Shown: piece by piece, positions 5,546 through 22,182 of the stretch
Position numbering within the stretch: the stretch's first letter is position 1
Layout: every line of letters starts with the position of its first letter
Assembly: GCA_015486185.1 (NCBI GenBank)
Contig: WFSC01000373.1
Location: 1 to 44,407 of the forward strand
Direction of reading: 5' to 3'
From: Bacteroidales bacterium
GTDB taxonomy: Bacteria; Bacteroidota; Bacteroidia; Bacteroidales; VadinHA17
Length of the DNA stretch: 44,407 bases
Translations under genes and position numbers: made by a program
The notes under the pieces: generated by a model
The model's input: only the letters and a program-made list of their open reading frames with translations
Database searches by the model: none
What the model was told of the DNA's origin: nothing

Positions 5546-5559
5546 TCACAGGGAACAAA

Positions 5560-5612: not shown

Positions 5613-5642
5613 TCTTATAAACATTTTTAACAATTAGCAGAA

Positions 5643-8690: not shown

Positions 8691-8734
8691 AACAGATGCG
8701 AAAAATGGATAAAGCAAAAATGATAAAGATAAAT

Positions 8735-10342
8735 ATGAAGTTAATTTCAACCCTTTTGATCTTTGCCCTGTTCGGATTGTTTTCCTGTGAGTCGCTTGAT
8801 GAGCCCAAGCCTGGCTTTTTGGATCCTGAAACGTTTCTCGAAAATCAGCAGGATGCTCTTGATCTATTGGCCGGGGCCTATTCAGGACAATATTCAATCA
8901 TGTCCTATTTGAAATCATGGATCATACTCAATGATATCGGATCTGATGATTGCGGATATATTTATGCTGAATTCCCTGACCGGGTACAATATGACCGTTT
9001 CATTTATGATCCCGAATACCGGGACTTCCTGAACATGTGGTGGCATCATTACATTATCATTAACAGAGCCAGTCTGGTCATTGCGAAGGTTTCCGATATG
9101 CCTGATTTTGCTTTCGACTCACCATCGATAAAGAAACGGATCATTGCCGAAGCCCGTTTTCTCCGTGCCTATAATTATTTCAACCTGATAAGGGGCTGGG
9201 GTGATGTCCCGTTTTTCGGCGACAACTATGTTTCTGATCCGGTAGGTGCCACCGATATGGACAGAACGGATGTAGAGACCATTTATGATTTTATCATCGA
9301 AGACCTTACCAAGGCTGAAGAGGATCTCTGGGACCGGGAAAAAGTAGAAAAAGGGAGAGCCACCGGAGGGGCAGCCCAGGCCCTTTTATCCAAGGTGTAT
9401 CTGACACGTGCCGGATGGAGGCTTGATGCCAACACAGGAGAAATGGTACAGGGGGATCCTTCCAACTGGGCAAAAGCGGCTGCCTGGGCCAAAAAACTGA
9501 TAGATGAAGGGCACTATGCCCTGATGGACAGTTTCAGACTGGTTTTCCCTGCCAGACCCGAGACGTATAGCTATGAAAACAATCCCGAACAGATCTATTT
9601 CGTCAATGCGGTGGAAGCAGGTCCCTGGTTTGAAACAAAAAAATATTATGGTCCCCGACGATTTGACAACCTGGGTGGCTATTCCTCTTACGTTGGAGAG
9701 ATAGAACTTTACAATTCTTTCGACTCCTCCGACAAAAGGCTCCCCGCCACCTATCTGATGTGGGTATTCGACAGGGATTTCAACAGACGTTTTAACCTCA
9801 ACGATCCCAAAGACAAGTGGTTTTGGTGGCCGGGACTCAACATTCCGCACATAGGAAAATATCTGCCGGATGAACCCTACTATGTGTATCCCCCCAGGGA
9901 AAACTTATCGGGCACCAACTATCCGCTGTTCCGTTATGCTGAAGTACTGCTGATCTATGCGGAAGCTGAAAATGAAGCCAATGGCGGTCCTGACGGGCAG
10001 GCTGTTGAAGCTTATAACCAGGTACGCAGAAGGGCCGGCCTCAGCGAATGGCCCAATGTAACTGATCCGGAAGGCAATCTCTATCCCAATACACAGGATG
10101 GTTTCCGGCAGGCTGTCCGCCAGGAAAGAAGGTTTGAGCTGGCCTTTGAATCCAAGCGCCTCTTCGACCTCAGAAGATGGGGCATCCTGGAACAACTGAT
10201 CAAAGACCGCGCTAATCTGCCTGTTCATACCCAGGAAGATGTGATCAGGGCCCAGAATATTACCAAATACCACAACCTGTGGCCTATACCTTATTACGAA
10301 ATACAAAGGAATCCGAAATTGAAACAGAATCCCGGCTTTTAA
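8735..10342 (+). CDS. SusD/RagB-family nutrient-binding outer-membrane lipoprotein
   Basis: The ORF track starts at 8696. I prefer ATG 8735, which gives the lipoprotein signal MKLISTLLIFALFGLFSC. SusD hallmarks are present: ARFLRAYNYFNLIRGWGDVP, LLSKVYLT, YAEVLLIYAEAENE, ERRFELAFESKRLFDLRRWG. Confidence 0.9.
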   Translation: MKLISTLLIFALFGLFSCESLDEPKPGFLDPETFLENQQDALDLLAGAYSGQYSIMSYLKSWIILNDIGSDDCGYIYAEFPDRVQYDRFIYDPEYRDFLNMWWHHYIIINRASLVIAKVSDMPDFAFDSPSIKKRIIAEARFLRAYNYFNLIRGWGDVPFFGDNYVSDPVGATDMDRTDVETIYDFIIEDLTKAEEDLWDREKVEKGRATGGAAQALLSKVYLTRAGWRLDANTGEMVQGDPSNWAKAAAWAKKLIDEGHYALMDSFRLVFPARPETYSYENNPEQIYFVNAVEAGPWFETKKYYGPRRFDNLGGYSSYVGEIELYNSFDSSDKRLPATYLMWVFDRDFNRRFNLNDPKDKWFWWPGLNIPHIGKYLPDEPYYVYPPRENLSGTNYPLFRYAEVLLIYAEAENEANGGPDGQAVEAYNQVRRRAGLSEWPNVTDPEGNLYPNTQDGFRQAVRQERRFELAFESKRLFDLRRWGILEQLIKDRANLPVHTQEDVIRAQNITKYHNLWPIPYYEIQRNPKLKQNPGF

Positions 10343-10353
10343 AAACTTATCTT

Positions 10354-11895
10354 ATGAAACAAATCAATAAGCTTCTGTTAGCAGGTTTCCTTGTTCTTTG
10401 CCCGGGATGGATATTACATGCCCAGATAAGAACCCTGTCTGTACGTGTCGCAGCCGACGTTACTCTGAAACAATCTGATCCGGACAAAAATCTCGGATAC
10501 CATCCAAACAATGCTGTATGTAACTGCGGACAGGAAACGTGGCTGAAATTTGATGTGGGTGATCTGGAAAATCAATTAATGCCCGGTGAACAGATACTGT
10601 ATGCCGAGGTCATGATGCGGGTATCCTGGAATGCTACGGGAGGGATCCGTGTCATACATCTCCGTAACGATGACAACTGGAATGAAGGTAACGGCACACA
10701 GGATCTGCCTGACAACCTTGACGGCATCACATGGAACAAGGCAATTACCATGACACCCACCATTGATGATCCTGCTTTTCATGACACACTTTACACAAAA
10801 GAACATTGTGGCCTGATGCCTGCAAAAGAATATTTCCCGGTGCTGCGTGCGCTGCAGAGTGAACTCAGTGATACCGGCAACAAGATAATGACTCTGAGAA
10901 TTATTCCCTATGCAGACACTACGGAAGAACAAGCCTGGCTGGGTTTTATCTCCCTCCAGTCACCGGTCTCGGCCTGGAACCTGGAAGTAGATGACGAAGG
11001 ATACCCGGTGGAAGCCCCTCATCTGTTCGTTTATGCAGGCGTCGCACAACAGAGGTTCAGTGATTATATCCATATGGGTGATACGGCTTTCTACTCCTTC
11101 CAACCTTCGTCTTTTGGTACCTGGCTGGTAGAAACAGATGAAGATGATCTGCGGCTTCATCTGGCCCAAAAGACCCGGGTGGATACCAATACCTGGAAAC
11201 CCGCTGCTTTAGCAATCTTCCGGGACACGGTTTTTGATAATCCTGACATCAATCTGCGAGCCAAAATGAATTACGTCACACCTTCCGGGATATTCTTTCC
11301 ATACAACGATTTTATCGTGATCTTCGGCTATACTGATGAAAACAATTTTTCTTATTTCGCTTTTTACGGCGATGATGAAAGCGGGACTTTCAGGGTTATC
11401 GACGGGAAACGTTACCGTATAGGAGAAGCAGATCCCCAGCCCGCCCTGAGCGACACCCTTTATCATAATTACAGGATCGTCAGGGAGGGATCAACGGTAA
11501 CCGCTTATATTGACAGTGCAGTGTATTATTCCGTAAGCAATGATTCATTGAATGTTCCGGGCAGGGTCGGAGTTGGATCCCACAACGATCCCGTTTTCTT
11601 TGATGATATATATGTTGAAGGATACAGTAGTATCACCGGGGTCAGACCTTTCCGGAAAGGCGCTTCCATTACTGTTTTTCCCACCATCGCTTCTCAGGAT
11701 GTTACGGTCAGAAGCACAGATCCGGTAAACGGGTATCAACTGTTAACGGTAAGCGGGAAAATGATCCTTGAAAAATCCTTTGCTCCCAAAAACATTTTCA
11801 ATATTGATCTTTCCATTGTTCCGTCAGGAATGTATCTGATCAGGCTGAGATGTAAGGGGAACAATTTGATAGTTAAAAAATGCATAAAAGAATAA
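10354..11895 (+). CDS. T9SS-secreted DNRLRE/CBM96-like plus LamG-like protein (paralog B of 3914..5545)
   Basis: The ORF track starts at 10279, overlapping the susD-like gene. ATG 10354 gives the signal peptide MKQINKLLLAGFLVLCPGWILHAQ. The protein is collinear with paralog A throughout (for example LSDTGNKIMTLRIIPY, GYPVEAPHL, FSYFAFYGDDESGTFRVIDGKRYRIGEA, YHNYRIVREGSTVTAYIDS). It has a variant Por tail: 'ITVFPTIASQDVTV...GMYLIRL'. Confidence 0.8.
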   Translation: MKQINKLLLAGFLVLCPGWILHAQIRTLSVRVAADVTLKQSDPDKNLGYHPNNAVCNCGQETWLKFDVGDLENQLMPGEQILYAEVMMRVSWNATGGIRVIHLRNDDNWNEGNGTQDLPDNLDGITWNKAITMTPTIDDPAFHDTLYTKEHCGLMPAKEYFPVLRALQSELSDTGNKIMTLRIIPYADTTEEQAWLGFISLQSPVSAWNLEVDDEGYPVEAPHLFVYAGVAQQRFSDYIHMGDTAFYSFQPSSFGTWLVETDEDDLRLHLAQKTRVDTNTWKPAALAIFRDTVFDNPDINLRAKMNYVTPSGIFFPYNDFIVIFGYTDENNFSYFAFYGDDESGTFRVIDGKRYRIGEADPQPALSDTLYHNYRIVREGSTVTAYIDSAVYYSVSNDSLNVPGRVGVGSHNDPVFFDDIYVEGYSSITGVRPFRKGASITVFPTIASQDVTVRSTDPVNGYQLLTVSGKMILEKSFAPKNIFNIDLSIVPSGMYLIRLRCKGNNLIVKKCIKE

Positions 11896-11941
11896 AAATA
11901 AATTTTTATCGATTCTAGTACTAACCTAAAAAGTTCAAATT

Positions 11942-14536
11942 ATGAAACACAAACTTTACATTTTCAGAGCATCCGTTGTGTTGCTGATGTTATTCCTCAC
12001 AGCAGGGATGTTATCTGCACAAACGGTGAATACCCAAATCACTGCGCAAACGGACACTTTCACAGCCACCTTTGATGTGGTTCCCTCAACTGCACCCATG
12101 AACGGTGGTGTTGGCTTCTCAAAAGACACGGTCAATGCCTGGAACCAGATGAGCACGATCCTGGGCTTCCGTTCCGGGGGTGTAATAGATGCACGTAATG
12201 GCGGCGGATATGAAGCATTGCAGACACTGAAGTATGAAGCGGGAAAAACCTATCATGTTGTCATGACGGTAGATGTCCCCAGCAAACTGTATAGCGTCAA
12301 AGTAACCCCTGAGGACGGTTTACCCGTAGTCATAGCCAAAGATTTTGCCTTCAGGGTAGATGTAGATACCCTCAATAACTTTTTCTCCCACAATGACTCC
12401 ATCATTGCCTGGGGGGGCGTTCACGGTGCCACACTCGATGTTTCAAATTTTCAAATCCTCACCGAGCCGGTGGCCATTGATTACCAACCCACCATCAATG
12501 TACCGGTTACACCCCGTGCCGACACTTTCACCGTATCATTCGACATAACACCTTCCGATGCACCTATGAATGCAGGAGTCGGCTTCTCCAAAGGGGCTGT
12601 CGCCTCGTGGGGTCAGATGAGTACCATCGTAGGCTTCCGTTCAGGCGGTATCATTGACGTCAGGGACGGTACCGCCTATAAAGCTCTTGAGGTTATGAAA
12701 TATGAAGCAGGTGTCACTTATCATGTCATTATGACCATTGACGTGGCCCATAACATGTACAGCGTTCAGGTGACCCCGGACGGTGGTTCACCGGTAATAC
12801 TGGCCAAGGACTTTGCTTTCCGTGTCAGCGTTGATACACTCAATAATTTCTTTACCCATAATGACACGCTGGAAGCCTGGGGAGGCGTTCATGGCGCACA
12901 ACTGATCTGTGAACATTTCAACATTGCGGATACGGTCATGACCATCGATAACAGTATCACGGTTGGCACTGCTATTAATACACCCATACCGGGCCAGACA
13001 GGACGTTTCGTTGCCGAATTTGATGCTGTGGCTTCGGATGATTCCATCAATGGCGGTTTGGCCTTCAGTGAACATCTGGCCGGAGCATGGGGACAGTTAA
13101 GCACTATTGTACGCTTCACACCCATGGGCAAGATCGATGTAAGGAACGGAAATATGTATGAATCGCTTTCCGATTATAAATATTACAAGGGACGTACCTA
13201 TCACTTTAATATGTATGTGGATATTCTGTCACAAACATACAATGTTACAGTGACCGGTGATGATCATGTCACGGTTAAACTGGCTGAAAATTATGCTTTC
13301 CGTATCCCCGCCGACACCCTGAACTACCGTGTGGTAATGATCGATACCAACCAGGCATGGGGGGGCAAACCCGGCAGCATGATCGATGTGACCAACTTCA
13401 TGATCCATGGCACCTATGCCCGCGCCAATATTTATCCGGCAGATACGCCTCCTGTCATTGACGGGGATCTCAGCGACGGTTTCTGGGACAACTACGAAGC
13501 GCACAACATCAACGTTAAACAACCCTGGCCCAATGCACCCTGGTATGGTCCTGTTGATTTCTCAGCATACTGGAAGGCTGCATGGGATGCAGATTCCCTG
13601 TACCTCATGGTCGATGTTAATGACTCCATCCTGTATAACGGAGGTGCTCCTGCCTGGAACCATGATGCGTTTGATGTTTATTTCGGCATCCTCAACAACC
13701 GGAACGGTCTGGGAGGAGGAGATCCCAAAGACAGTTCCAAGTTCATGTTCAATGTTCTGTGGCCTGACGTACCCGGTGGCAACGGTACCTGGAACAAGAG
13801 TTACAAATGGGTTGACCGTCAGGACGGAAAAGGTTATGTAGCCGAATTTGCTTTTGCCTGGAATGATCTCAATGCCAATGGTTACAACATTGATTTCACT
13901 GCCGGCACACAATTCCTTTTCGATATTCATCTGGTGGATGATGATAATCCTGCATGGGACGATATGAGCATATGGGCATGGAGTTCCCCGGCCAACTGCT
14001 GGGCAAACATGGATATGGCCGGTGAGGTAACCCTGGCTAACGCGCTGAATACGACCGATCTGCTTCATGCCATAGACAGCGCTGCCGGCATACTTGATAC
14101 GGCTACTGTCGGAAATGGCATAGGTGAATATACCCAGGATAAGGTGGATGCTCTCACCGGCGCTCTCGACACTGCCAGCACATTCCATGTGAACATCGCT
14201 CCGGCTACCACACAGGATGAGGTGGATCAGGCTACACAGGATCTGCTTGATGCCATTGCCGCGTTCACTCCCAATGTAACCGGTATCAAGGTAGTAAAGA
14301 CGGCTACTTTCACCGTTTATCCAAATCCTGTCCACGGCACCCTGACCATCTCCGATCTGGAAAATAATGTCATTATGGTTGAGATCGTTAATATGACAGG
14401 AGCTACCGTTAAACAGATCATGGTCAAAGGCCGAAATAATGTGACGGTCAATGTGTCGGATCTGACAAATGGAATTTATATTCTGAAAGTTATCTCCGGT
14501 AGTCAGATAACCACAAAACTGGTTATTAAAAAGTAA
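11942..14536 (+). CDS. T9SS-secreted multidomain protein: three copies of an uncharacterised ~145-aa domain, a CBM9-like domain, a FIVAR-like helical segment and a Por C-terminal domain
   Basis: 864 aa with signal peptide ...LTAGMLSAQ. It contains three internal repeats, listed as a separate feature. The CBM9-like segment is 'PPVIDGDLSDGFWDN...AAWDADSLYLMVDVNDS...HDAFDVYF...FDIHLVDDD'. The FIVAR-like segment is 'YTQDKVDALTGALDTA...QDEVDQATQDLLDAIAAF'. The tail is 'VYPNPVHGTLTISD...GIYILKVI'. Confidence 0.85.
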   Translation: MKHKLYIFRASVVLLMLFLTAGMLSAQTVNTQITAQTDTFTATFDVVPSTAPMNGGVGFSKDTVNAWNQMSTILGFRSGGVIDARNGGGYEALQTLKYEAGKTYHVVMTVDVPSKLYSVKVTPEDGLPVVIAKDFAFRVDVDTLNNFFSHNDSIIAWGGVHGATLDVSNFQILTEPVAIDYQPTINVPVTPRADTFTVSFDITPSDAPMNAGVGFSKGAVASWGQMSTIVGFRSGGIIDVRDGTAYKALEVMKYEAGVTYHVIMTIDVAHNMYSVQVTPDGGSPVILAKDFAFRVSVDTLNNFFTHNDTLEAWGGVHGAQLICEHFNIADTVMTIDNSITVGTAINTPIPGQTGRFVAEFDAVASDDSINGGLAFSEHLAGAWGQLSTIVRFTPMGKIDVRNGNMYESLSDYKYYKGRTYHFNMYVDILSQTYNVTVTGDDHVTVKLAENYAFRIPADTLNYRVVMIDTNQAWGGKPGSMIDVTNFMIHGTYARANIYPADTPPVIDGDLSDGFWDNYEAHNINVKQPWPNAPWYGPVDFSAYWKAAWDADSLYLMVDVNDSILYNGGAPAWNHDAFDVYFGILNNRNGLGGGDPKDSSKFMFNVLWPDVPGGNGTWNKSYKWVDRQDGKGYVAEFAFAWNDLNANGYNIDFTAGTQFLFDIHLVDDDNPAWDDMSIWAWSSPANCWANMDMAGEVTLANALNTTDLLHAIDSAAGILDTATVGNGIGEYTQDKVDALTGALDTASTFHVNIAPATTQDEVDQATQDLLDAIAAFTPNVTGIKVVKTATFTVYPNPVHGTLTISDLENNVIMVEIVNMTGATVKQIMVKGRNNVTVNVSDLTNGIYILKVISGSQITTKLVIKK
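12029..13410 (+). repeat. Intragenic tandem triplication of a ~145-aa domain (approx. 12029-12470, 12488-12925, 12965-13410)
   Basis: The shared pattern is F..FD..P......G.GFS.....W.Q.STI.GFRSGG.ID.R.G..Y......KYEAG.TYHV.MT.DV....YSV.VTP....V..AKDFAFRV.VDTLNNFF.HND...AWGGVHGA. By eye, copies 1 and 2 are ~65% identical. Copy 3 is clearly homologous but much more diverged. Confidence 0.75.
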
Positions 14537-14565
14537 CCATTCGTTAATAAATCAATTAGATGTTC

Positions 14566-14601
14566 AAGACACCGGCAGTTATATTTCTGCCGGTGTCTTT
14601 T
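14566..14601 (+). terminator. Rho-independent terminator after the triple-repeat protein gene
   Basis: There is a perfect 13-bp stem, AAGACACCGGCAG (14566-14578) with CTGCCGGTGTCTT (14587-14599), and an 8-nt loop. The stem runs into TTTT. Confidence 0.7.
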
Positions 14602-14635
14602 AACCCATTTATTTTTTTAAAAACCCAAAACAGGT

Positions 14636-17152
14636 TTGATAATAACACGATTTAATCTCCTAAATTTTTTACATTTACAGACAGGATCCGCCTCAAATGG
14701 ATTCAGACTTTTGCTGATCTTTCTGGTAACCGGTTTCATGACCGGAAGACTACAGGCACAGGAATCCACTGTCAAGGTCAATCACCAGGGAAAAGATTAT
14801 ACCCGGTTAAAATACGCATGGACAGCACAGTGGATCACTCATCCTGTTGCATCCACTTTGGATTACGGCGTCTTTCTTTTCAGAAGGGATTTTACTCTTC
14901 ATTCTGTACCGGATTCATTTATCATTTATGTTTCAGCCGATAACCGTTACCGTTTGTTTGTCAATGGCCGGTATGCCTGTTTCGGACCATCACAGGGGGA
15001 TCTGGCCCATTATCGTTACGAAAAGCTGGATATTGCCCGTTTCCTAACAACAGGCAGAAATGTCATTGCTGCTGAAGTGGTCAATTTCGGAGAATACCGG
15101 AGAGCTGCCCAGCAAACTTTCCAAACCGCATTTATCCTGCAGGGAGAAAAGAAAAACCCTGTCAATGTAAATACAGGCACTTTTCAGTGGAAAGTTTTAC
15201 GTAATAATGCTTACCAATCCATTCCTTTTACCAGCGATTCATTGAAAGCCTATTATGCTGCCGGACCAGGTGACCGGGTAAATGACAAGGACTATCCCCG
15301 GGGATGGGAAAAACCCGGTTATGATGACAGTAACTGGATGAGGCCGAAAAAAGCTACGGTAGAATTCGCTGTGGGTCGCGGATTTCTTTATGGCAGCACA
15401 TGGTTTCTGGTACCACGTATTATCCCTTTCCTGGAACAGACCATACAGCGTTTTCCACGTATCATCAGATCAAACGGAATAAAGGCAGATCCATCCTTCC
15501 TCAAAGGAACAGGGACTTTGACCATACCTGCTCATACACAGGTTTCCATTTTACTTGATCAGACTTTTCATACTACCGGATTTCCTGTTTTGCAATACAG
15601 CAAAGGGAAGAACAGCCGGATAAAAATAACATATGCTGAAGCACTGTTCAGGATTCATCCTGCAACGGGGCGTATATCGGATGGAAACCTGACATACGTC
15701 GATCTGAAAGGCAACCGCAATATTTTCAAGGATAAGGAGATCAGAGGGATCTATGACATAATCCTTCCTGCCGGCGACGACAACCGTCTTTTCAGGCCTT
15801 TGGGTCGCAGAACCTACCGTTTTGTACAACTGGATATAGAAACAAAAGACGAGCCACTGATCCTGAATGATTACCATAGTGTCTATACTGTTTATCCTTT
15901 CAGGGAAAATGCCGGATTCGAGAGTCCCGACACCATGCTCACCCGTATCTGGAAGGTTGCCTGGCGGACATTGCGCAACTCCGCTGCCGAAACGTTCCTT
16001 GATCCTTATTACGAACAGTTGCAATACATCGGCGACACACGTATCGAAGCATTGGTCTCTCTCTTTGTATCGGGAGATGACCGCCTCATGCGCAAGTCCC
16101 TTGTTCAGTTTAACAACTCCCGTATCCCCGACGGATTAACACAAAGCCGTTATCCATCCTATATAACACAAATTATTCCTCCTTATTCATTGATCTGGAT
16201 TGATATGATCCATGATTATTATATCTACCGGAATGATCCCGGATTTATAAGACAATTTTTACCGGGTATGCGTGATGTGCTTGAATGGTTTGCCTCAAGA
16301 ATCGACTCAAGCGATTTGCCTGCCGGTCTGGAATGGTGGAATTTTACCGATTGGGCGAAAGGGTTCCCCAATGGTATTCCTCCCGGCGCCGATGACGGAT
16401 ACTCGGCCAATGTGTCCCTCCAGTTTGTACTGGCATTGCAAAATGCAGCAGTGATTTTCCATGATCTCGGATGGGATTATGAAAGTAAAAAATACCGGGA
16501 AATGTCCCGATCCGTTATCCATGCTGTCAACCGGCTTTGTTACGACCCGGAAAAAGGGATGTATGCTGAAACGCCCAAAAAAAAGATCTTTTCTCAGCAT
16601 ACCAATATTTTTGCTATCCTGACAGATGCGCTGCCCCGGGAACGGCAACCTGCTTTGATGGAACATATCCTGACTGACCGGTCACTAATCCGGACCACTA
16701 TATATTTTAAATTCTACCTCTTTGAGGCACTTCATAAAAACGGCATGGGAAACCGTTACACAGAACTGCTTTCTCCCTGGAAAAACATGATCCGCAACGG
16801 TATGACCACTTTCGGAGAAACCGATATCAATCCCAGGTCAGAATGTCATGGATGGAGTGCCAGCCCATGCATTGATTTCATGCATATCATAGCAGGGATA
16901 TCTTCCGGTTCAAAAGGTTTTAAGACAGTGATCATACAACCTGCTCCGGGCCCCCTTCCCTGGTTCAAAGCATCCATGCCCCATCCCGATGGAATGGTTT
17001 CTGTTGACTTTTCCAGAAAGAAGAAGAAAAGAATAGCAGCCGTTGTTCATCTGCCTGATGCTACCAACGGCATCTTTATCTGGGAGAATGACACTATTCC
17101 CCTTCATCCCGGACCCAATGACATTCACTTAAAAAACAACCATCCTCAATGA
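14636..17152 (+). CDS. GH78-like alpha-L-rhamnosidase family protein ((alpha/alpha)6 six-hairpin glycosidase)
   Basis: 838 aa. The N-terminal 'FLFRRDFTL...IYVSADNRYRLFVNGRYACFGP' matches the rhamnosidase N-terminal domain pattern. The central motif is 'DPYYEQLQYIGDTRIE' and the C-terminal motif is 'SECHGWSASPCIDFMHIIAGI'. The ORF starts at TTG 14636. The only in-frame ATG would remove the signal peptide (LLLIFLVTGFMTGRLQAQ). Confidence 0.65.
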   Translation: MIITRFNLLNFLHLQTGSASNGFRLLLIFLVTGFMTGRLQAQESTVKVNHQGKDYTRLKYAWTAQWITHPVASTLDYGVFLFRRDFTLHSVPDSFIIYVSADNRYRLFVNGRYACFGPSQGDLAHYRYEKLDIARFLTTGRNVIAAEVVNFGEYRRAAQQTFQTAFILQGEKKNPVNVNTGTFQWKVLRNNAYQSIPFTSDSLKAYYAAGPGDRVNDKDYPRGWEKPGYDDSNWMRPKKATVEFAVGRGFLYGSTWFLVPRIIPFLEQTIQRFPRIIRSNGIKADPSFLKGTGTLTIPAHTQVSILLDQTFHTTGFPVLQYSKGKNSRIKITYAEALFRIHPATGRISDGNLTYVDLKGNRNIFKDKEIRGIYDIILPAGDDNRLFRPLGRRTYRFVQLDIETKDEPLILNDYHSVYTVYPFRENAGFESPDTMLTRIWKVAWRTLRNSAAETFLDPYYEQLQYIGDTRIEALVSLFVSGDDRLMRKSLVQFNNSRIPDGLTQSRYPSYITQIIPPYSLIWIDMIHDYYIYRNDPGFIRQFLPGMRDVLEWFASRIDSSDLPAGLEWWNFTDWAKGFPNGIPPGADDGYSANVSLQFVLALQNAAVIFHDLGWDYESKKYREMSRSVIHAVNRLCYDPEKGMYAETPKKKIFSQHTNIFAILTDALPRERQPALMEHILTDRSLIRTTIYFKFYLFEALHKNGMGNRYTELLSPWKNMIRNGMTTFGETDINPRSECHGWSASPCIDFMHIIAGISSGSKGFKTVIIQPAPGPLPWFKASMPHPDGMVSVDFSRKKKKRIAAVVHLPDATNGIFIWENDTIPLHPGPNDIHLKNNHPQ

Positions 17153-17178
17153 ACAAATATGCCTGAACAACTACAAAA

Positions 17179-18996
17179 ATGACGATCCGTTTACTGACAT
17201 ACTCTCTCATCCTGTTGCTGCTTCATGTTCAGGGTTATCTTTTTGCCCAGCATGAGGAAAATTCGCCTGCAGATCCGGGAAGTACCAAAACATTGCTTAC
17301 ACCGTTCCGCCTTCCTCTTCCGGCCGATACAGGCACGATCAGATATATCGACCTCGACCATGACGGAGACCCTGATGTATTACAGACAATTATTGACGGG
17401 AACATCCCTGTACAATGGATCGATGATGATGATGACATGAAAAAAGGAGATATGGAAGGAGATACGGACAACGATTGTTTGATGATTGACAGGAACAAAG
17501 ACGGACGTTACGGTGGATCGCAAGATCTTATTATCGATTGGGACGATGAAGACGGTGATGGCAAAGCAGATATTCAGGTGCTGGTTGAGAACTCAAAAAC
17601 AAGCTATAAAGGAAAATGGAAATCACATATTGTATATATCTTTGACACGGATCATGACGGCATTTTCAATTATGTTGACTGGTCTGCGTTTAAACCGGAA
17701 GCATGGGATCACAGCGGACGGTGCCGTTTCTATCAGGATTATATGGGGCAGAGCCTGATGCTGAAAACACATATTTCCACCTTTTCTATTTCTGACTTGC
17801 GCTATAACTGGGAAAACCCGTTTCTTTTCTATGATGAAGATCATGACGGATATACGGAAATGGCGATCAGGCTGGTTGATGAACCGGAAAATGTTAAAAC
17901 GAAAAAAAACAAAAAAGAGCGCCATGACGGAGATAAGTATTATACTTTTTCATTCACCAAAAAGATCTCGCTGGCTCAGTTAACCTTTGACCTGGATAAT
18001 GACAACAGGGCAGGAAATGAATTTGATTATGATATGAGCCTGCAATTCTCCGGCACCGGTTTTTCATATGCCGGACAGGTTCATCATTATAACAGTCTGC
18101 GTGGTTTACCTGCGGCAGACCGGTATTTTTATGATCCCCGATGGCGGAGGCTGAATGAATTGATCTATTGTGGTCATGATACGGCCTACCGGATGATCTT
18201 TGACCGGGGCCAATGGTCCTCCTGTTGGATGGTCTTTGATGAAGATGATGATTGTCAGCGATGGGAAAGAGTGGAATTCTATATGCCTTTGGACCCGTTT
18301 ATACATGGAGCAAATAAAGGAGGGCTGGATAATAATCCGCAGGCCGATGTAAGCGGAGACCGTGGAGAATGGGATCTCGACTGCTCAGGCAAAGGAAATC
18401 TTTATATAAGCCCCATGGACGGGAAACTCCATCTATTGGGCGCTGAAACAGGATATTGGCGCATTGACCAGATGGCACTTTATTTCCAGGGATGGCAAGG
18501 ATGGCGCGGTCAGAATATACAGCCCCAGGACATGATTTTCGAAGAACCTAAGTCTTTCGCTACTATAAAATATGAAGATACTGACAGGAACGGATTCTTT
18601 GATAAAATGTCTTTTGATATGGACGGAGATCATAAATGGGAAACACAGATCCGTCTGGCAGATCTTGGATTAACAGATACTGCCGCTATACTGATAACAT
18701 CAAAAGAAGGATATAAGGGACTGCATCAGGCCTACGGGGATATGGCAAATAATATGTGGATCTTTGCCCTGCAAGCCATGAAAGTGGCAGATAAATATCA
18801 TTTGAATACAAGCTGGTATGCCTTTCTGAAAAACCCCGTTACCGAACATGAAAAATATTTCAACGGTTTTTGGCTTGCCTGGTATATTTACAGGGATCTC
18901 GTCAACTGGTCCAAAGCCAATCATAATAAACAGCTTATAAGAAAAATAAATCGGGCTTATTTCAGTTTTAACTGGGACCCGCTTTTAAAAAATTAA
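17179..18996 (+). CDS. Secreted hypothetical protein with multiple DxDxDG-type (FG-GAP/EF-hand-like) acidic calcium-binding motifs; function unknown
   Basis: 605 aa with signal peptide MTIRLLTYSLILLLLHVQGYLFAQ. Repeated acidic motifs include IDLDHDGDPDVL, DRNKDGRYGG, DWDDEDGDGKADIQVL, FDTDHDGIFNY, YDEDHDGYTEMAIRL, FDLDNDNRAGNEFDYD and FDMDGDHKWE. I could not assign a family by eye. Confidence 0.75.
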   Translation: MTIRLLTYSLILLLLHVQGYLFAQHEENSPADPGSTKTLLTPFRLPLPADTGTIRYIDLDHDGDPDVLQTIIDGNIPVQWIDDDDDMKKGDMEGDTDNDCLMIDRNKDGRYGGSQDLIIDWDDEDGDGKADIQVLVENSKTSYKGKWKSHIVYIFDTDHDGIFNYVDWSAFKPEAWDHSGRCRFYQDYMGQSLMLKTHISTFSISDLRYNWENPFLFYDEDHDGYTEMAIRLVDEPENVKTKKNKKERHDGDKYYTFSFTKKISLAQLTFDLDNDNRAGNEFDYDMSLQFSGTGFSYAGQVHHYNSLRGLPAADRYFYDPRWRRLNELIYCGHDTAYRMIFDRGQWSSCWMVFDEDDDCQRWERVEFYMPLDPFIHGANKGGLDNNPQADVSGDRGEWDLDCSGKGNLYISPMDGKLHLLGAETGYWRIDQMALYFQGWQGWRGQNIQPQDMIFEEPKSFATIKYEDTDRNGFFDKMSFDMDGDHKWETQIRLADLGLTDTAAILITSKEGYKGLHQAYGDMANNMWIFALQAMKVADKYHLNTSWYAFLKNPVTEHEKYFNGFWLAWYIYRDLVNWSKANHNKQLIRKINRAYFSFNWDPLLKN

Positions 18997-19083: not shown

Positions 19084-22000
19084 ATGAAAACGACCATTAA
19101 AACGTTCATCTTTTTTTGCCTGCTCTTCATTGAGGCGTTACCTTCGTGGGCCAATCCGGGATTGAGTTTTTATCATTATTATACAAAAAACGGCCTCCCT
19201 CATAATTACATCTACAGCATATGCCAGGATAGCAGGGGGTTTTTATGGATTGGCACACGCAACGGGATTGCACGTTTTGACGGATATGAATTTATTTCCT
19301 ATGATCCCGAATCACATGATCACGGACTGGTACCTGCTTATGTTACAGGTATCCGGGAAGATAAGAACGACAGATTATGGCTGTTTACCCCGGAAAGCAG
19401 TTTATTTTATTACATACCTGAAAGGGACAGTTTTTATTATCTGAAAGATAAATTCACAAGGATTTATCCGGATCATCAAAAATACGTATGGGTACTTTTC
19501 GGAACCCACCTTTATAAAATCCAACAGAATACCTTTCAAAATAAAACGAGCAGTTACGAATCCCCTGAACCGGGAACCTTTAAAAGGATCTTCCGGGAAA
19601 AGCATGATCAATTATGGGTATATGACACTTTTGATGAAGCAGACCTCAGTATCCTTCCGGCAAGTGCTGTCAAAAGGTACGATATCTCTGTCCCGGACAA
19701 AAAGACATTTTATGTGAACCAGTTTTACCGGGATACGGAAGGAACATTCTGGATCAGCACCTTTAGCAGCGGACTTATACATTTCGTACCGGATAATAAC
19801 GAGACTTTATATGCCATCTCGGCTGCATTACCTGATCATATTCCGGATAATCATGTTTACGGGGTATTCGAAAAATCAAAGGATGAACTGTGGATCGGAA
19901 CAATGAAAGGCCTATCCATTCTGGATAAAAGAACCGGTCATATTACCACCCTGCATAATAATTCCGGAGATCATGAAAGTATCAGTGATAATGTTGTGAC
20001 GACTTTTTATTTGGATAACTCGGGCACTATATGGGTAGGCACCCGTTTTGGACTCAACAGACTTCTCAGAAAGAAATTCATGCATTTTTACCATGAAAAC
20101 GGCAAGAACAGCCTGATCAATAATAACGTTCATGCTTTTTATGAGGATAAGAATAATGATATATGGATTGCCACCAGTAATGGACTGGATCGGTTTAACC
20201 GCAAAACTGAAAGGTTCAGGCATTATCCGGTTGACCAATCCAGGCCCGGATGGCTGGATGCCGCACCGATCACCCTGAGAGGAGATGACCTTGGCAACCT
20301 GTGGATCGGAACATGGCGGGGCGGACTCTTCTATTACGAGAAGAAAAAAAATATTTTTCATAAATTTCACCATGATCCGGATAACTCCGGCTCTATCATA
20401 AATAATAACATTTTCAGCATTTACATCGATTCCCAAAAACGGCTTTGGGTGGGTACCTGGGCTGAAGAGGGTCAGGAAGGAGGACTGGACAGGTATGACC
20501 CGGAGCAGAAGATATTCATCCATTATAAACCGGGTAAACAGAACGGATTGAGCGGCAACCGTGTAGGTTGTATCCTTGAAGATCATATGTCAAGGCTCTG
20601 GATAGGGACCATGAACGGACTGAATAGAATGACCGATCCGGAGAAGGAAACTTTTATTGTTTTCAGGAATGATCCGGACGACTCACTGTCCATCAGTAAT
20701 AACAAAATATCCTGTCTTTTTGAAGATGACAGACATGCTTTATGGATAGGGACAAGTCACGGTCTAAATAAGCTTCTTCCTTCCGGCACAGATTTTTTGA
20801 GAATAACTACAAACCACGGACTTCCTTCTAACTCGATCAAGGCGATTCAGGAAGACAGGGAGGGAAATCTCTGGGTCAGCACCAACAAAGGTCTGGCAGA
20901 GATCGTGAGAGATTCATTAACACAAAGGATAATCAATATTAAAAAATTCGATGTGGAAGACGGCCTTCAGGATGAGGAATTCCTGGAACGTTCCGTATTA
21001 AAATGTTCTGACGGTTCTTTACTGTTTGGTGGCACAAACGGTTTTAATCTTTTTGACCCGCAAAAGATCATAGACAACCCCACTCCCCCAAAGTGTGTCA
21101 TTACACAATTTCGTATCCTGCAACATGTAGCAAAACCGGAGGAAGATATCATGGGGAAAATTATCCTGACCCAACCTATCAGCCTGACAAAAGAAATAAC
21201 CCTGCCTCATAAATTCAATGTTTTTTCCATCGAGTTTGCCGGGTTGCATTATGAATATCCCGAAAAAAACAAGTACGCATACAAACTGACCGGATTTGAT
21301 AAAAACTGGCAATATACGGATGCGTCCAAAAGAATAGCAACCTATACCAATCTGGATGGTGGCAAATATGTTTTCGAGGTAAAAGCAGCGAATAGTGACG
21401 GTATCTGGAGTAATCAACCGGCAAAATTGATCATAAACATCACCCCTCCTTTTACCAGTACACTCTTCTTTAAGATCATTCTTTTTCTGAGCATTGTATT
21501 TATTGTATTTCTCTATTTCGAAGCCCGGCTATTGATCTCCCGTAAACAGAAAAAATTATTAAAACTGCAGGTCACGGTACGTACCAAAGAGATACAACGG
21601 CAAAAAGATGAGATCCTCCAACAAAAGGAACAGATAGAACACCAGGCCAATGAAATCCGAAGAATGAATGAACTGTTAAAGAAAAACAACATCAAACTTG
21701 CCGAACAAATCAAAGACCTTTCCGAAGCCAGAGTGATGCAGAAATTGCTGGATTACGACGAATTCAGAAAATTCTTCCCCGACCGGGATGCCTGCTATAA
21801 ACTGCTGGCAGAGCTGAAATGGGGAAATGGTTTTGTTTGCAAAAGATGTGGAAGTACCAAGTACAGTATAGACGAACCCTTTATCAGGAGATGCAAAGCA
21901 TGTAACTATAAAGAATCCGTTACAGCAGGAACTATCTTTCATCACCTTCGTTTCCCGATCGAAAAAGCCATGTACATACTCATCATAGCCAGTACGGGAA

Positions 22001-22182
22001 GAAAGATCAATATCAGCCAGCTATCCAAAACCCTATCGTTAAGAATGAAGACTTGCTGGAACTTTTATAACAAGGTAAAAAAACAATTATCTGTTCGCAG
22101 CAAAAAATCCAAATGGAAAAAAGGGAACTGGATAGATCTCCTGTTGTTGGATGAAAACCACCCGAGGGATAAGGAAAAATAG
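19084..22182 (+). CDS. Transmembrane one-component-like regulator: periplasmic two-component-regulator propeller repeats plus Y_Y_Y domain, one TM helix, a coiled coil, and a C-terminal IS1595-type transposase zinc-ribbon/HTH DNA-binding module with no DDE domain
   Basis: The ORF track starts at TTG 19075. ATG 19084 gives MKTTIKTFIFFCLLFIEALPSWA. There are about 11 propeller blades of the type 'D..G.LWIGT..GL.R(F/L)'. The Y_Y_Y segment is 'FAGLHYEYPEKNKYAYKLTGFDKNWQYT...YVFEVKAANSDGIWSN'. The TM helix is 'TLFFKIILFLSIVFIVFLYF' (about 21459-21518), followed by a coiled coil (about 21540-21730). The C-terminus is 'FPDRDACYKLLAELKWGNGFVCKRCGSTKYS...RRCKACNYKESVTAGTIFHHLRFPIEKAMYILIIASTGRKINISQLSKTLSLRMKTCWNFYNKVKKQL', with CxxC...CxxC at 21838-21903. 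Confidence 0.85.
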   Translation: MKTTIKTFIFFCLLFIEALPSWANPGLSFYHYYTKNGLPHNYIYSICQDSRGFLWIGTRNGIARFDGYEFISYDPESHDHGLVPAYVTGIREDKNDRLWLFTPESSLFYYIPERDSFYYLKDKFTRIYPDHQKYVWVLFGTHLYKIQQNTFQNKTSSYESPEPGTFKRIFREKHDQLWVYDTFDEADLSILPASAVKRYDISVPDKKTFYVNQFYRDTEGTFWISTFSSGLIHFVPDNNETLYAISAALPDHIPDNHVYGVFEKSKDELWIGTMKGLSILDKRTGHITTLHNNSGDHESISDNVVTTFYLDNSGTIWVGTRFGLNRLLRKKFMHFYHENGKNSLINNNVHAFYEDKNNDIWIATSNGLDRFNRKTERFRHYPVDQSRPGWLDAAPITLRGDDLGNLWIGTWRGGLFYYEKKKNIFHKFHHDPDNSGSIINNNIFSIYIDSQKRLWVGTWAEEGQEGGLDRYDPEQKIFIHYKPGKQNGLSGNRVGCILEDHMSRLWIGTMNGLNRMTDPEKETFIVFRNDPDDSLSISNNKISCLFEDDRHALWIGTSHGLNKLLPSGTDFLRITTNHGLPSNSIKAIQEDREGNLWVSTNKGLAEIVRDSLTQRIINIKKFDVEDGLQDEEFLERSVLKCSDGSLLFGGTNGFNLFDPQKIIDNPTPPKCVITQFRILQHVAKPEEDIMGKIILTQPISLTKEITLPHKFNVFSIEFAGLHYEYPEKNKYAYKLTGFDKNWQYTDASKRIATYTNLDGGKYVFEVKAANSDGIWSNQPAKLIINITPPFTSTLFFKIILFLSIVFIVFLYFEARLLISRKQKKLLKLQVTVRTKEIQRQKDEILQQKEQIEHQANEIRRMNELLKKNNIKLAEQIKDLSEARVMQKLLDYDEFRKFFPDRDACYKLLAELKWGNGFVCKRCGSTKYSIDEPFIRRCKACNYKESVTAGTIFHHLRFPIEKAMYILIIASTGRKINISQLSKTLSLRMKTCWNFYNKVKKQLSVRSKKSKWKKGNWIDLLLLDENHPRDKEK

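What the first reader, a model, noticed from the sequence alone, without database searches (positions are those of the whole stretch)
19084..22182. PUL sensor whose output is a domesticated IS1595 transposase zinc-ribbon/HTH module instead of a kinase/AraC
The N-terminal ~780 aa are a textbook Bacteroidota hybrid-two-component-type periplasmic sensor, with about 11 Reg_prop blades and a Y_Y_Y domain. After the single TM helix and a ~60-aa coiled coil there is no HisKA, HATPase, receiver, AraC or LuxR domain. The last ~130 aa instead match the N-terminal DNA-binding module of IS1595/ISXO2-type transposases. That module has the 'FP...AC..(Y/L)L...(K/R)W.....C..CG' opening, a second CxxC, 'T.GTIF...' and an HTH-like 'I...QLS..L.....T.W....K'. 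The ORF then stops with no DDE catalytic domain, and the next gene starts about 100 nt later. This architecture implies a membrane-tethered (ToxR-like) glycan sensor that binds DNA directly through a transposase-derived domain. I do not know of a characterised PUL regulator of this kind. It sits at the 3' end of a PUL made mostly of uncharacterised secreted proteins.
Basis: partly seen in the sequence, partly recalled or inferred. Interest (0 to 1): 0.8.

Follow-up and report, generated by a model that had tools for sequence, protein, structure and literature searches.

The report
Glycan sensor with transposase-type DNA-binding output
A membrane-spanning sugar sensor in a Bacteroidales polysaccharide-utilisation locus ends in the zinc-ribbon/helix-turn-helix DNA-binding module of IS1595 transposases instead of a kinase, and it belongs to a large, conserved, undescribed family of apparent one-protein sensor-regulators rather than being an accident.

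Summary
The ORF at 19084-22182 (+, 1032 aa) has this order: signal peptide, Reg_prop double propeller, Y_Y_Y domain, one TM helix, a ~80-aa coiled coil, then a Zn_ribbon_IS1595 (PF12760) plus helical module. It has no HisKA, HATPase, REC, AraC or DDE domain.

- The PF12760 hit is above Pfam's gathering threshold.
- Genuine IS1595 transposases align over the whole ~125-aa module, and the protein ends where their DDE domain begins.
- The architecture is collinear in at least 10 independent genomes, with no IS remnants, flanking inverted repeats or GC break.

The same coiled-coil + ZnR-HTH cassette also ends an unrelated sensor class, 7TMR-DISM, in Cytophagales and Sphingobacteriales. That class is also often next to SusC/SusD. 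The module also occurs as a stand-alone ~145-aa protein. In 48 of 50 loci, a conserved tandem operator-like repeat lies in that gene's promoter region.

The module is the best conserved part of the protein. Its helical part is strongly basic.

Most likely this is a membrane-tethered one-component transcription regulator of its PUL. DNA binding, the operator and the ligand remain untested. I found no literature on this architecture. I rate it a new variant of a known kind.

The parts
19084..22182 (+). Whole gene (1032 aa + stop): transmembrane sensor with IS1595-type ZnR-HTH output
   Evidence: ORF list; Pfam; the same gene is called on the ENA source contig
19084..19152 (+). N-terminal signal peptide or anchor (aa 1-23, MKTTIKTFIFFCLLFIEALPSWA)
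   Evidence: Read directly from the translation; hydrophobic N-termini are also seen in relatives
19153..21249 (+). Periplasmic Reg_prop beta-propeller sensor region (aa 24-722; the length fits two 7-bladed propellers)
   Evidence: Pfam Reg_prop E 6.5e-60, 9 stretches. Nearest relatives by this region are propeller sensors with many different outputs
21250..21441 (+). Y_Y_Y (Ig-like) domain, aa 723-786
   Evidence: Pfam PF07495 E 8.1e-18
21448..21516 (+). Single transmembrane helix, about aa 789-811 (LFFKIILFLSIVFIVFLYFEA)
   Evidence: Hydrophobicity scan of this family; sequence; part of the continuous helix aa 794-886 in the AF2 model
21517..21753 (+). Cytoplasmic coiled-coil / signalling helix, aa 812-890. 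Its conserved motifs (V..RT.E, I..MN.LL...N..L, ARVM.K) are shared with the 7TMR-DISM class
   Evidence: AF2 single helix with pLDDT >95; heptad a/d hydrophobic fraction 0.61 vs 0.37 overall; nearly invariant columns V830 R833 T834 N862 L865 N869 L872 across both sensor classes; 33-44% identity
21754..21957 (+). Two short helices plus a four-Cys zinc ribbon (aa 891-958; C919/C922/C937/C940 invariant, plus conserved C904). The Pfam Zn_ribbon_IS1595 match covers aa 902-942
   Evidence: Pfam PF12760, 38.1 bits vs cut-off 25.4; invariant Cys columns; AF2 3-stranded ribbon with pLDDT ~95; Foldseek aligns the ribbon only to eL43/L37ae-type ribbons, not significantly
21958..22107 (+). Three-helix HTH-like region (helices aa 959-970, 977-984, 988-1008; 'ISQLSKTLSLRMKTCWNFYNKVKK'), strongly basic
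   Evidence: AF2 helices. In aa 946-1010, K+R is 14 vs D+E 1, pI 10.9. Aligns to the equivalent region of real IS1595 transposases just before their DDE domain. Weak HTH_24/Mga HTH hits in 4 of 31 family members
22108..22182 (+). Short C-terminal tail with the 'W..LLL' motif (W1016 nearly invariant in the membrane-sensor versions, absent from stand-alone proteins and transposases), then the stop codon
   Evidence: Alignments
1165..18996 (.). The PUL that the sensor presumably controls. Genes: GH88-like/F5_F8 T9SS protein (1165-3315, -), 3-keto-disaccharide-hydrolase-like T9SS protein (3914-5545), SusC (5643-8690), SusD (8696-10342), T9SS protein (10279-11895), CBM9/sialidase-CBM T9SS protein (11942-14536), GH78 rhamnosidase (14636-17152), and a conserved 605-aa protein with no family hit (17179-18996)
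   Evidence: Pfam/NCBIfam; orthologues of these genes flank the sensor orthologue in 10 of 10 related loci
3316..3913 (.). 598-bp, 25% GC divergent intergenic region at the head of the PUL. It is the most likely place for the regulated promoter(s). No operator was identified
   Evidence: Composition; only weak AT-rich inverted repeats; no tandem repeats

Best explanation
The gene encodes a transmembrane one-component signal transducer that most likely controls transcription of the adjacent PUL.

Proposed steps (all inferred):
1. A periplasmic double beta-propeller + Y_Y_Y domain, the input module of Bacteroidota hybrid two-component systems, binds a breakdown product of the PUL's target glycan. 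GH78 and GH88-like enzymes suggest a rhamnose- or uronate-containing polysaccharide.
2. The conformational change passes through the single TM helix and a long (~90-residue) dimeric signalling helix.
3. It reaches a C-terminal zinc-ribbon + helix-turn-helix module that binds DNA while still tethered to the inner membrane. This replaces the kinase-receiver-AraC relay of ordinary HTCS.

The module is homologous to the end-binding N-terminal domain of IS1595-family transposases but has no catalytic DDE domain. It is therefore a transposase-type DNA-binding domain working as a signalling output.

Shown here:
- the architecture;
- homology to the transposase N-terminal module and absence of DDE;
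- conservation as a family;
- reuse of the same coiled-coil + module cassette on an unrelated sensor (7TMR-DISM);
- conserved linkage to PUL genes;
- stand-alone relatives with operator-like repeats in their own promoters.

Inferred, not shown: ligand binding, dimerisation, DNA binding by the module in this protein, its operator, and whether it activates or represses.
For: Architecture and thresholds are.

Homology to real transposases:
- It covers 84-100% of the 146-aa module.
- The transposases' DDE domain starts at aa ~131-139.
- No DDE remnant exists in the window.

The protein belongs to a family rather than being an accident:
- 389 50%-identity clusters match the module profile at E<=1e-30.
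- The top 150 all carry the module at the extreme C-terminus.
- Of 64 full-length proteins scanned, 23 are Reg_prop+Y_Y_Y+PF12760, 41 are 7TMR-DISM+PF12760, and none has a DDE.

Purifying selection on the output:
- Among 22 Reg_prop-class representatives, identity to the window protein is 49% in the module and 44% in the coiled coil, against 32% in the periplasmic domain.
- Among 41 proteins whose 7TMR-DISM sensor is unrelated to this one, identity is 45% in the module and 33% in the coiled coil.

PUL linkage:
- 10 of 10 orthologous loci carry orthologues of this PUL's genes despite rearranged order.
- 9 of 17 7TMR-DISM loci (9 of the 12 long ones) have SusC/SusD directly adjacent, against 0 of 50 with SusD for stand-alone loci.
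- In cultured Persicobacter and Aureibacter the gene sits at the end of CAZyme/SusD clusters.
- There is no other regulator in the window's PUL.

The propeller sensor is a promiscuous input. It is fused elsewhere to kinases, phosphatases, cyclases and a LuxR HTH, so an output swap is the natural reading.

DNA-binding plausibility:
- The AF2 model is confident (pLDDT ~95 in the core): a ribbon followed by three helices.
- The helical part has K+R 14 vs D+E 1.
- There are weak HTH_24/Mga hits.

Stand-alone DDE-less relatives behave like classical autoregulated transcription factors:
- They are divergent from a conserved methyltransferase / radical-SAM / thioredoxin cluster.
- The motif AAATC-N7-TATCAC lies within 600 bp upstream of their start in 48 of 50 loci. 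It is always in the same orientation, usually as two copies 20 bp apart.
- The motif is absent upstream in 0 of 27 sensor loci, with a background of 9 hits in 448 kb.
Against: - No DNA-binding experiment exists for this module in any context that I could find, and no structure. Foldseek against the PDB gave nothing at E<=1e-3, and the sequence search of the PDB gave nothing significant.
- I could not identify an operator in the window's PUL or across orthologous PULs.
- The stand-alone family's motif is not enriched in the window (17 hits vs 18.6 expected).
- HTH assignment of the last three helices rests on the model, on charge, and on weak Pfam hits in 4 of 31 members.
- A DNA-binding domain on a ~14-nm helix tethered to the membrane must reach the nucleoid. 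This is known for HTCS, ToxR and CadC, but proteolytic release cannot be excluded.
- Most family members are from MAGs.
Confidence: 0.7

Rival explanations
1. The sensor logic is the same, but the ZnR-helical module does not bind DNA. It signals through protein-protein or RNA contacts, for example by sequestering or recruiting a transcription factor, sigma factor or RNA at the membrane.
For: - Zinc ribbons are versatile. The only structural neighbours of the ribbon are RNA-binding ribosomal proteins (eL43/L37ae), and those matches are not significant.
- No operator was found for the PUL-linked classes.
- HTH support is weak at the sequence level.
Against: - No candidate partner gene (sigma, anti-sigma or response regulator) is conserved next to the sensor.
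- The module is homologous over its full length to a transposase end-recognition domain.
- Stand-alone relatives have conserved operator-like repeats in their own promoters.
- The putative recognition helix region is very basic.
Confidence: 0.12
2. The protein is a DNA-binding regulator, but it acts only after regulated proteolysis. That cleavage releases the coiled-coil + ZnR-HTH fragment from the membrane. This is a variant of the mechanism rather than a different function.
For: - The DNA-binding module sits at the end of a ~90-residue helix, with a lower-confidence hinge at aa ~880-890.
- An N-terminally truncated 406-aa version is encoded in one relative (L003/P0001).
Against: - HTCS with AraC outputs, and ToxR/CadC-type regulators, work while membrane-anchored (established knowledge).
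- No protease gene is conserved in the loci.
- The coiled coil is itself conserved across sensor classes, as expected for a signalling helix that transmits conformational change.
Confidence: 0.12
3. The gene is an artefact or a dead gene: an ordinary HTCS truncated by an IS1595 insertion, a frameshift, or an assembly chimera.
For: - The C-terminal domain is otherwise typical of transposases, and annotation pipelines call stand-alone relatives 'transposase'.
- One relative (L023) is frameshifted and one (L003) is truncated.
Against: - There is a single ORF with an in-frame junction.
- Collinear full-length orthologues exist in at least 10 independent assemblies.
- There are hundreds of clusters with the same architecture and no DDE.
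- The module is the most conserved part of the protein.
- There is no DDE remnant, no flanking terminal inverted repeats (in contrast to real IS copies) and no GC break.
Confidence: 0.01
4. The module keeps a transposon-related role. For example, it could act as a membrane-anchored decoy or repressor that binds IS1595-family ends and modulates transposition, as IS1 InsA does for IS1.
For: - It is homologous to the transposase end-binding domain.
- N-terminal transposase fragments can act as repressors in other IS families (recalled knowledge; IS1 InsA).
Against: - There is no IS1595 element in the window or in the related loci examined.
- The module is fused to two kinds of extracytoplasmic sensor input domain (Reg_prop/Y_Y_Y; 7TMR-DISMED2) and is conserved next to PUL genes, which makes no sense for IS control.
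- The family scores far from real transposases: 89-114 bits for sensor proteins against <=76 bits for transposases in the same search.
Confidence: 0.03

Closest known systems
Bacteroides hybrid two-component systems (HTCS, e.g. the BT4663 type)
   Same: - The periplasmic input is the same: Reg_prop double propeller + Y_Y_Y.
- There is a single TM helix, a PUL-adjacent location, and a membrane-anchored protein that is itself the DNA-binding regulator (HTCS biology from established knowledge).
   Different: There is no HisKA, HATPase, receiver or AraC domain. The whole phosphorelay + AraC output is replaced by a coiled coil + IS1595-type ZnR-HTH, so signalling must be conformational, without phosphotransfer.
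Reg_prop-Y_Y_Y-GerE/LuxR one-component sensors (e.g. P0206, 907 aa) and SusR / ToxR / CadC-type membrane-bound one-component regulators
   Same: The logic is the same: an extracytoplasmic sensor and a DNA-binding domain sit in one membrane-spanning polypeptide with no phosphorelay. P0206 shows the same propeller sensor directly fused to an HTH.
   Different: - The output domain family is different (PF12760-type ZnR-HTH, not LuxR, wHTH or other HTH).
- ToxR/CadC have the opposite topology, with the DNA-binding domain N-terminal.
IS1595-family transposases (ISCsp2; Chondrinema IS1595-family copy; ISXO2-like)
   Same: The N-terminal ~125 aa (helices + four-Cys zinc ribbon + three helices) are homologous at 30-33% identity over the full module. 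The family is described as having an N-terminal zinc finger (PMC8101967).
   Different: - There is no DDE_Tnp_IS1595 catalytic domain.
- There are no terminal inverted repeats.
- It is single copy in the window.
- It is fused behind a sensor, a TM helix and a coiled coil.
7TMR-DISM receptors (7TMR-DISMED2 + 7TM, with diverse intracellular modules)
   Same: A sister branch of this family uses the 7TMR-DISM sensor with the identical coiled-coil + ZnR-HTH cassette, often next to SusC/SusD.
   Different: The input domain and number of TM helices are different. The window protein has the propeller sensor and one TM helix.
Transposon-protein-derived bacterial transcription factors (TnpB-derived TldR repressors; IS1 InsA as an IS-encoded ZF-HTH repressor)
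   Same: The concept is the same: a transposon-encoded nucleic-acid-binding protein or domain used for gene regulation (PMC10705468, seen; InsA is recalled knowledge).
   Different: The protein families and mechanisms are unrelated. TldR is RNA-guided and InsA is still part of its IS. Here only the DNA-binding domain is used, as the output of membrane sensors.

Membership tests
Hybrid two-component system (HTCS) | Periplasmic sensor domain + TM helix | tested here: met
   Reg_prop x9 and Y_Y_Y; TM at aa ~789-811
Hybrid two-component system (HTCS) | Histidine kinase core (HisKA + HATPase_c) | tested here: not met
   No such Pfam hit at E<=1. Only 221 aa are cytoplasmic, and all of them are accounted for by the coiled coil + module
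Hybrid two-component system (HTCS) | Receiver domain and AraC-type HTH output | tested here: not met
   No Response_reg, HTH_18 or HTH_AraC hit
IS1595-family transposase | N-terminal Zn_ribbon_IS1595 + helical DNA-binding module | tested here: met
   PF12760 at 38.1 bits, above the 25.4 cut-off; full-module alignment to ISCsp2 and a Chondrinema transposase
IS1595-family transposase | DDE_Tnp_IS1595 catalytic domain | tested here: not met
   Absent from the protein, from the window and from 64 of 64 family members scanned. Present in the true transposases used as controls
IS1595-family transposase | Terminal inverted repeats flanking the gene; multicopy | tested here: not met
   Only weak, chance-level inverted repeats around 21300-22600, against clear 15-25-nt terminal IRs in real copies. 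There is a single copy in the window
Transmembrane one-component transcription regulator | Sensor and putative DNA-binding domain in one membrane-spanning polypeptide, with no phosphotransfer domain | tested here: met
Transmembrane one-component transcription regulator | Sequence-specific DNA binding and control of target promoters | not testable with these tools
   Indirect evidence only: a basic HTH-like region, homology to a transposase end-binding domain, and operator-like repeats for stand-alone relatives. No operator was found for this PUL
PUL-associated regulator | Conserved genomic linkage to SusC/SusD and CAZyme genes across divergent genomes | tested here: met
   10 of 10 orthologous loci carry orthologues of the window's PUL genes. 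The 7TMR-DISM sister class has SusC/SusD adjacent in 9 of 17 loci, against 0 of 50 with SusD for the stand-alone class

The most novel reading that the evidence does not exclude
The coiled-coil + ZnR-HTH cassette may define a previously unrecognised, phylum-wide class of signal-transduction output.

- A DNA-binding domain of IS1595-transposase type was recruited in the Bacteroidota-Ignavibacteriota lineage.
- It now serves in three forms: (i) as the output of HTCS-type propeller sensors; (ii) as the output of 7TMR-DISM receptors, both controlling PULs without any phosphorelay; and (iii) as stand-alone autoregulated transcription factors of a thioredoxin / radical-SAM / methyltransferase cluster.
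- The 20-bp-spaced tandem operators of the stand-alone factors may descend from a transposon end.

If true, this would be a large bacterial family of transcription factors built on a transposase DNA-binding domain, at present hidden under 'transposase' and '7TM ... domain-containing protein' annotations.
Probability: 0.5. Interest if true: 0.8.

Novelty: new variant of a known kind. Interest (0 to 1): 0.66.

Why it matters
PUL regulation is usually described in terms of HTCS, SusR-like, ECF-sigma/anti-sigma and cytoplasmic LacI/GntR/AraC regulators. This family adds an output type that current annotation hides, so PUL regulator censuses in environmental Bacteroidota (Bacteroidales MAGs, Cytophagales, Sphingobacteriales) miss it.

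- **Phosphorelay-free signalling.** The same input domain as HTCS can apparently signal without a phosphorelay, through a long helix to a small DNA-binding module. That gives a compact, testable model for transmembrane conformational signalling.
- **Engineering.** It could be a portable sensor-to-DNA cassette.
- **Evolution.** It is a candidate case of a transposase DNA-binding domain reused as a cellular transcription factor. This route is well documented in eukaryotes and rarely in bacteria.
- **Annotation.** Pipelines that count PF12760 as a mobile-element marker (for example the list quoted in PMC13639185) will misclassify these regulators as transposases.
- **Experiments are feasible.** Cultured carriers exist: Persicobacter psychrovividus, Aureibacter tunicatorum, Flammeovirga kamogawensis and Mucilaginibacter sp. 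UYCu711.

Tried and rejected
1. **Operator search for the propeller-sensor class.**
   - K-mers shared among large upstream regions of the window, L007, L008 and L023 gave one 14-mer (CCGCAATTTTCAAA). It lies inside what looks like a small conserved coding sequence that is absent from the window, so I rejected it.
   - Repeat scans of 3316-3913 and of orthologous intergenic regions found only weak AT-rich inverted repeats and no shared tandem repeats.

2. **Transfer of the stand-alone family's motif to the window.** AAATC-N7-TATCAC is not enriched there: 17 matches against 18.6 expected.

3. **Conserved blocks between the 7TMR-DISM sensor gene and SusC in five Cyclobacteriaceae/Ohtaekwangia loci.** The blocks are TGTTTTTnAAGCG..AA (twice) and AATCGNTTGNAATCNATG. 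They are candidates only. The loci are related and the blocks may be promoter elements.

4. **Structural neighbours.**
   - Foldseek against the PDB gave no hit at E<=1e-3. Only the ribbon matched ribosomal eL43/L37ae.
   - The PDB sequence-profile search gave nothing significant.
   - BFVD gave two hits at about 2e-5 to unnamed viral proteins, which were uninformative.

5. **Word-indexed protein search with the C-terminus.** It returned only 7 hits. The exhaustive representative search was needed to see the family.

7. **Formal phylogeny rooting DDE-less modules against transposases.** I did not attempt it. Only two transposase sequences were in hand and there are only ~120 alignable positions.

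8. **Literature.** Seven searches found nothing on PF12760 as a signalling output, or on this architecture.

Full report
**1. The observation.**

The window has one uninterrupted ORF at 19075(TTG)/19084(ATG)-22182 on the + strand. The 1032-aa ATG form is also the gene called on the source metagenome contig, ENA ERZ23495180 scaffold_281.

Pfam gives the following:
- Reg_prop, E 6.5e-60, nine stretches.
- Y_Y_Y at aa 723-786, E 8e-18.
- Zn_ribbon_IS1595 (PF12760) at aa 902-942, E 1.5e-9, 38.1 bits against a gathering score of 25.4.
- No HisKA, HATPase, receiver, AraC, LuxR or DDE_Tnp_IS1595.

NCBIfam finds no transposase model.

An AlphaFold2 model of aa 780-1032 has mean pLDDT 89.7. It shows one continuous helix from aa 794 to 886, covering the TM segment and the coiled coil. 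After a short hinge come two helices, a three-stranded four-Cys ribbon and three further helices. The best heptad register has hydrophobic residues at 0.61 of a/d positions, against 0.37 overall.

The coiled coil is about 80 aa rather than 60. The PUL also contains recognisable genes: SusC, SusD, a GH78 rhamnosidase, a GH88-like protein, CBM proteins and 3-keto-disaccharide-hydrolase-like T9SS proteins.

**2. Is the C-terminus really the transposase module?**

A tblastn of the last 146 aa against plasmids finds annotated IS1595-family transposases (Chondrinema, ISCsp2 and others). They align over 84-100% of the query at ~30-32% identity, E 1e-10 to 1e-14.

In the reverse direction, aa 3-127 of the 300-aa Chondrinema transposase and aa 18-150 of ISCsp2 hit window 21736-22161. 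Their DDE halves hit nothing anywhere in the window.

In those transposases Pfam places DDE_Tnp_IS1595 from aa ~131-139 onward. The alignment shows the window protein ending where that domain would start. The homology therefore covers the whole N-terminal module, not only the 46-aa ribbon.

**3. Not an accident.**

(a) The PF12760 hit is significant.

(b) There is no frameshift or chimera.
- A scan of one genome per species found 263 relatives of the module.
- Among the best 80, ten are ~970-1084-aa ORFs. They align collinearly with the window protein over ~860-1099 alignment columns at 35-65% identity, from independent assemblies.

(c) The gene is not unique and not flanked by IS remnants.
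- An exhaustive profile search of 1.84 billion representative proteins gave 389 clusters at E<=1e-30.
- All of the best 150 carry the module at the extreme C-terminus.
- In a Pfam census of 64 full-length proteins, 23 of 23 long ones (22 library representatives plus the window protein) are Reg_prop+Y_Y_Y+PF12760. All 41 of the ~600-aa ones carry 7TMR-DISM_7TM (39 also 7TMR-DISMED2), PF12760 passes E<=0.001 in 60 of the 64, and none has a DDE domain.
- Around the module there are no convincing inverted repeats. Real IS copies have 15-25-nt terminal repeats.
- There is no GC discontinuity.

**4. A shuffled output cassette.**

The second architecture has a different sensor, 7TMR-DISMED2 + seven TM helices, followed by the same coiled coil and module.

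Identity to the window protein, by region:

| Region | 22 Reg_prop-class representatives | 41 7TMR-DISM proteins |
|---|---|---|
| ZnR-HTH module | 49% | 45% |
| Coiled coil | 44% | 33% |
| Periplasmic domain | 32% | ~11% (aligned only nominally) |

Nearly invariant positions span both the helix (V830, R833, T834, N862, L865, N869, L872) and the module (C904, K912, W913, C919, C922, C937, C940, E944, T950, F952, P958, K961, T990, W1016).

So the output is the most constrained part of the protein. It has been combined as a unit with two unrelated membrane sensors.

The propeller sensor is itself a promiscuous input. Its closest relatives carry HisKA/HATPase (with or without REC and AraC), HisKA_3, GAF, PAS, SpoIIE phosphatase, nucleotide cyclase, Ser/Thr kinase, or a GerE/LuxR HTH (P0206). 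An output swap is therefore the natural interpretation. A direct sensor-HTH fusion already has a bioinformatic precedent.

**5. Linkage to PULs.**

In all ten orthologous loci the sensor lies beside orthologues of the window's own PUL genes. These are the family-less 605-aa protein (17179-18996), GH78, the CBM/T9SS protein, the 3-keto-disaccharide-hydrolase-like T9SS proteins and SusC/SusD. Gene order and orientation differ: the sensor is last in the window, first in L007 and L008, and convergent in L004.

The window's PUL contains no other regulator.

For the 7TMR-DISM class:
- 9 of 17 loci (9 of the 12 that are ~20 kb) have SusC/SusD directly adjacent. Among the stand-alone class, 3 of 50 loci have a SusC-like gene and 0 of 50 have SusD.
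- In cultured Persicobacter psychrovividus the gene ends SusD/GH3/GH16 and GH3/GH5/GH2 clusters.
- In Aureibacter tunicatorum it follows GH43/GH97/BglX/sulfatase genes.

NCBI names these proteins only '7TM diverse intracellular signaling domain-containing protein' or 'two-component regulator propeller domain-containing protein'.

**6. Evidence that DDE-less modules are DNA-binding regulators.**

The third architecture is a stand-alone 137-153-aa protein, found in Bacteroidales, Prolixibacteraceae, Ignavibacteria and Kapaibacterium. It is annotated 'transposase'.

It is conserved divergently from a cluster of SAM-methyltransferase (37 of 50 loci), radical-SAM (35) and thioredoxin (42) genes.

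Its upstream region carries a striking tandem repeat: TAAATCGCAATAGTATCAC-TT-AAATCTTTTTAATATCAC. The pattern AAATC-N7-TATCAC, allowing one mismatch, behaves as follows:
- It occurs within 600 bp upstream of the start codon in 48 of 50 loci.
- It is always on the coding strand, typically as two copies 20 bp apart at about -75 to -25.
- It occurs upstream in none of 27 sensor loci.
- Background in the sensor loci is 9 hits in 448 kb.

Further paired copies lie in other intergenic regions of the same cluster. This is the signature of an autoregulated transcription factor with a small regulon, and it extends across two phyla.

It is indirect support for the window protein. The putative recognition region (LSLR..TCW.F..K) is well conserved between the classes.

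In the window protein, the helical part (aa 946-1010) has 14 K+R against 1 D+E, pI 10.9. A few family members give weak HTH_24/Mga HTH hits.

**7. What could not be shown.**

- No solved structure resembles the whole module.
- I found no operator for the window's PUL, nor one shared among orthologous PULs.
- The stand-alone motif is not enriched in the window.
- Conserved blocks upstream of SusC in five related 7TMR-DISM loci are only candidates.
- Ligand, dimerisation, the sign of regulation, and whether the protein acts tethered or after cleavage are all inferred.
- The direction of evolution is inferred only from distribution. The transposases occur in Proteobacteria, archaea and Bacteroidota. 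The fusions were seen only in Bacteroidota, and the stand-alone forms in Bacteroidota and Ignavibacteriota.

**8. Comparison with known systems, and verdict.**

- The protein works like a membrane-tethered one-component regulator (SusR/ToxR/CadC logic, or the Reg_prop-LuxR fusions).
- It uses the HTCS input domain, but it fails the HTCS membership test: no kinase, receiver or AraC domain.
- It fails the transposase membership test: no DDE domain, no terminal repeats, single copy in the window.
- It is a member of the PF12760 domain family.

Seven literature searches found no description of this architecture or of PF12760 as a signalling output. One recent pipeline uses PF12760 as a transposase marker, which would misclassify these proteins.

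I rate it a real feature and a new variant of a known kind, with moderately high interest. It is large, conserved, hidden by annotation and directly testable in cultured Cytophagales and Sphingobacteriales.

Noticed in passing
L025-L080 (stand-alone class), e.g. L048:9931-9968, L048:7233-7272, L041:5041-5078, L059:9818-9945: The stand-alone 137-153-aa ZnR-HTH genes are annotated 'transposase'. They carry a conserved tandem repeat (AAATC-N7-TATCAC, two copies 20 bp apart) in their own promoter region in 48 of 50 loci across Bacteroidota and Ignavibacteriota. Extra paired copies lie elsewhere in the divergent SAM-methyltransferase / radical-SAM / thioredoxin / DUF302 cluster. This looks like an undescribed autoregulated transcription factor and regulon, possibly related to redox or metalloids.
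   Followed up: partly
window 17179-18996 (+): A 605-aa secreted, Asp-rich protein has no Pfam or NCBIfam hit. It lies immediately or closely upstream of the sensor gene in 9 of 10 orthologous loci at 52-74% identity. It is a conserved PUL component of unknown function, possibly a new glycan-active enzyme or a sensor partner.
   Followed up: partly
L003:9236-10456 (protein P0001, 406 aa): In one Bacteroidales MAG the sensor orthologue lacks the propellers. It starts inside the region before Y_Y_Y, directly after the GH78 gene, leaving Y_Y_Y + TM + coiled coil + module. This is either a natural deletion variant or an assembly problem.
   Followed up: no
L023:7247-10431: The orthologue in an uncultured Bacteroidaceae MAG (long-read contig) is interrupted. 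The ORF ends 88 codons before the end of the module match. This suggests a frameshift, a pseudogene or a sequencing error.
   Followed up: no
window 22282-23496 (+) and 23512-24426 (-): Downstream of the sensor are a hemerythrin-HHE + PAS_10 protein and a XerD-like tyrosine recombinase (with an N-terminal SAM-like domain). Neither is IS-related. The PAS_10 gene is not conserved next to the sensor in other loci.
   Followed up: partly
window 3316-3913: There is an unusually long (598 bp) and AT-rich (25% GC) divergent intergenic region between the GH88-like gene and the first T9SS/SusC operon gene. It is the presumed regulatory hub of the PUL. No clear repeats were found.
   Followed up: partly
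L021/L019/L022/L016/L014, intergenic between the 7TMR-DISM-ZnR gene and SusC (alignment A8): Conserved blocks (TGTTTTTnAAGCGnnAA twice, about 66 bp apart, and AATCGNTTGNAATCNATG) lie within otherwise divergent intergenic DNA. They are candidate promoter or operator elements for the 7TMR-DISM class. 'AATCG' also starts the stand-alone motif.
   Followed up: partly
L081:1405-1429 (Chondrinema IS1595-family element, left terminal repeat): The left inverted repeat of a genuine IS1595-family element lies 60-84 bp upstream of its transposase start and contains TTTAAATCT. The position and an 8-mer resemble the stand-alone regulators' repeat (..CTTAAATCTTTT..). This is a weak hint that those operators could descend from a transposon end, but it may be chance in AT-rich DNA.
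   Followed up: no
cluster 3 (144-aa stand-alone proteins): IMG annotates some 144-aa stand-alone ZnR-HTH proteins as 'two-component system, sensor histidine kinase LadS'. This is presumably annotation transfer from 7TMR-DISM proteins that share this C-terminal module, and so an annotation artefact.
   Followed up: no
window 8696-10342 and 10279-11895: The listed ORF for the T9SS protein (GTG at 10279) overlaps the end of SusD by 64 nt. The true start is probably further downstream.
   Followed up: no
L007:7051, L008:12690, L023:14211 (minus strand): A conserved stretch of about 100 nt (containing CCGCAATTTTCAAA) lies between the T9SS genes and SusC in three orthologous PULs. It looks like a small conserved coding sequence, and it is absent from the window.
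   Followed up: no
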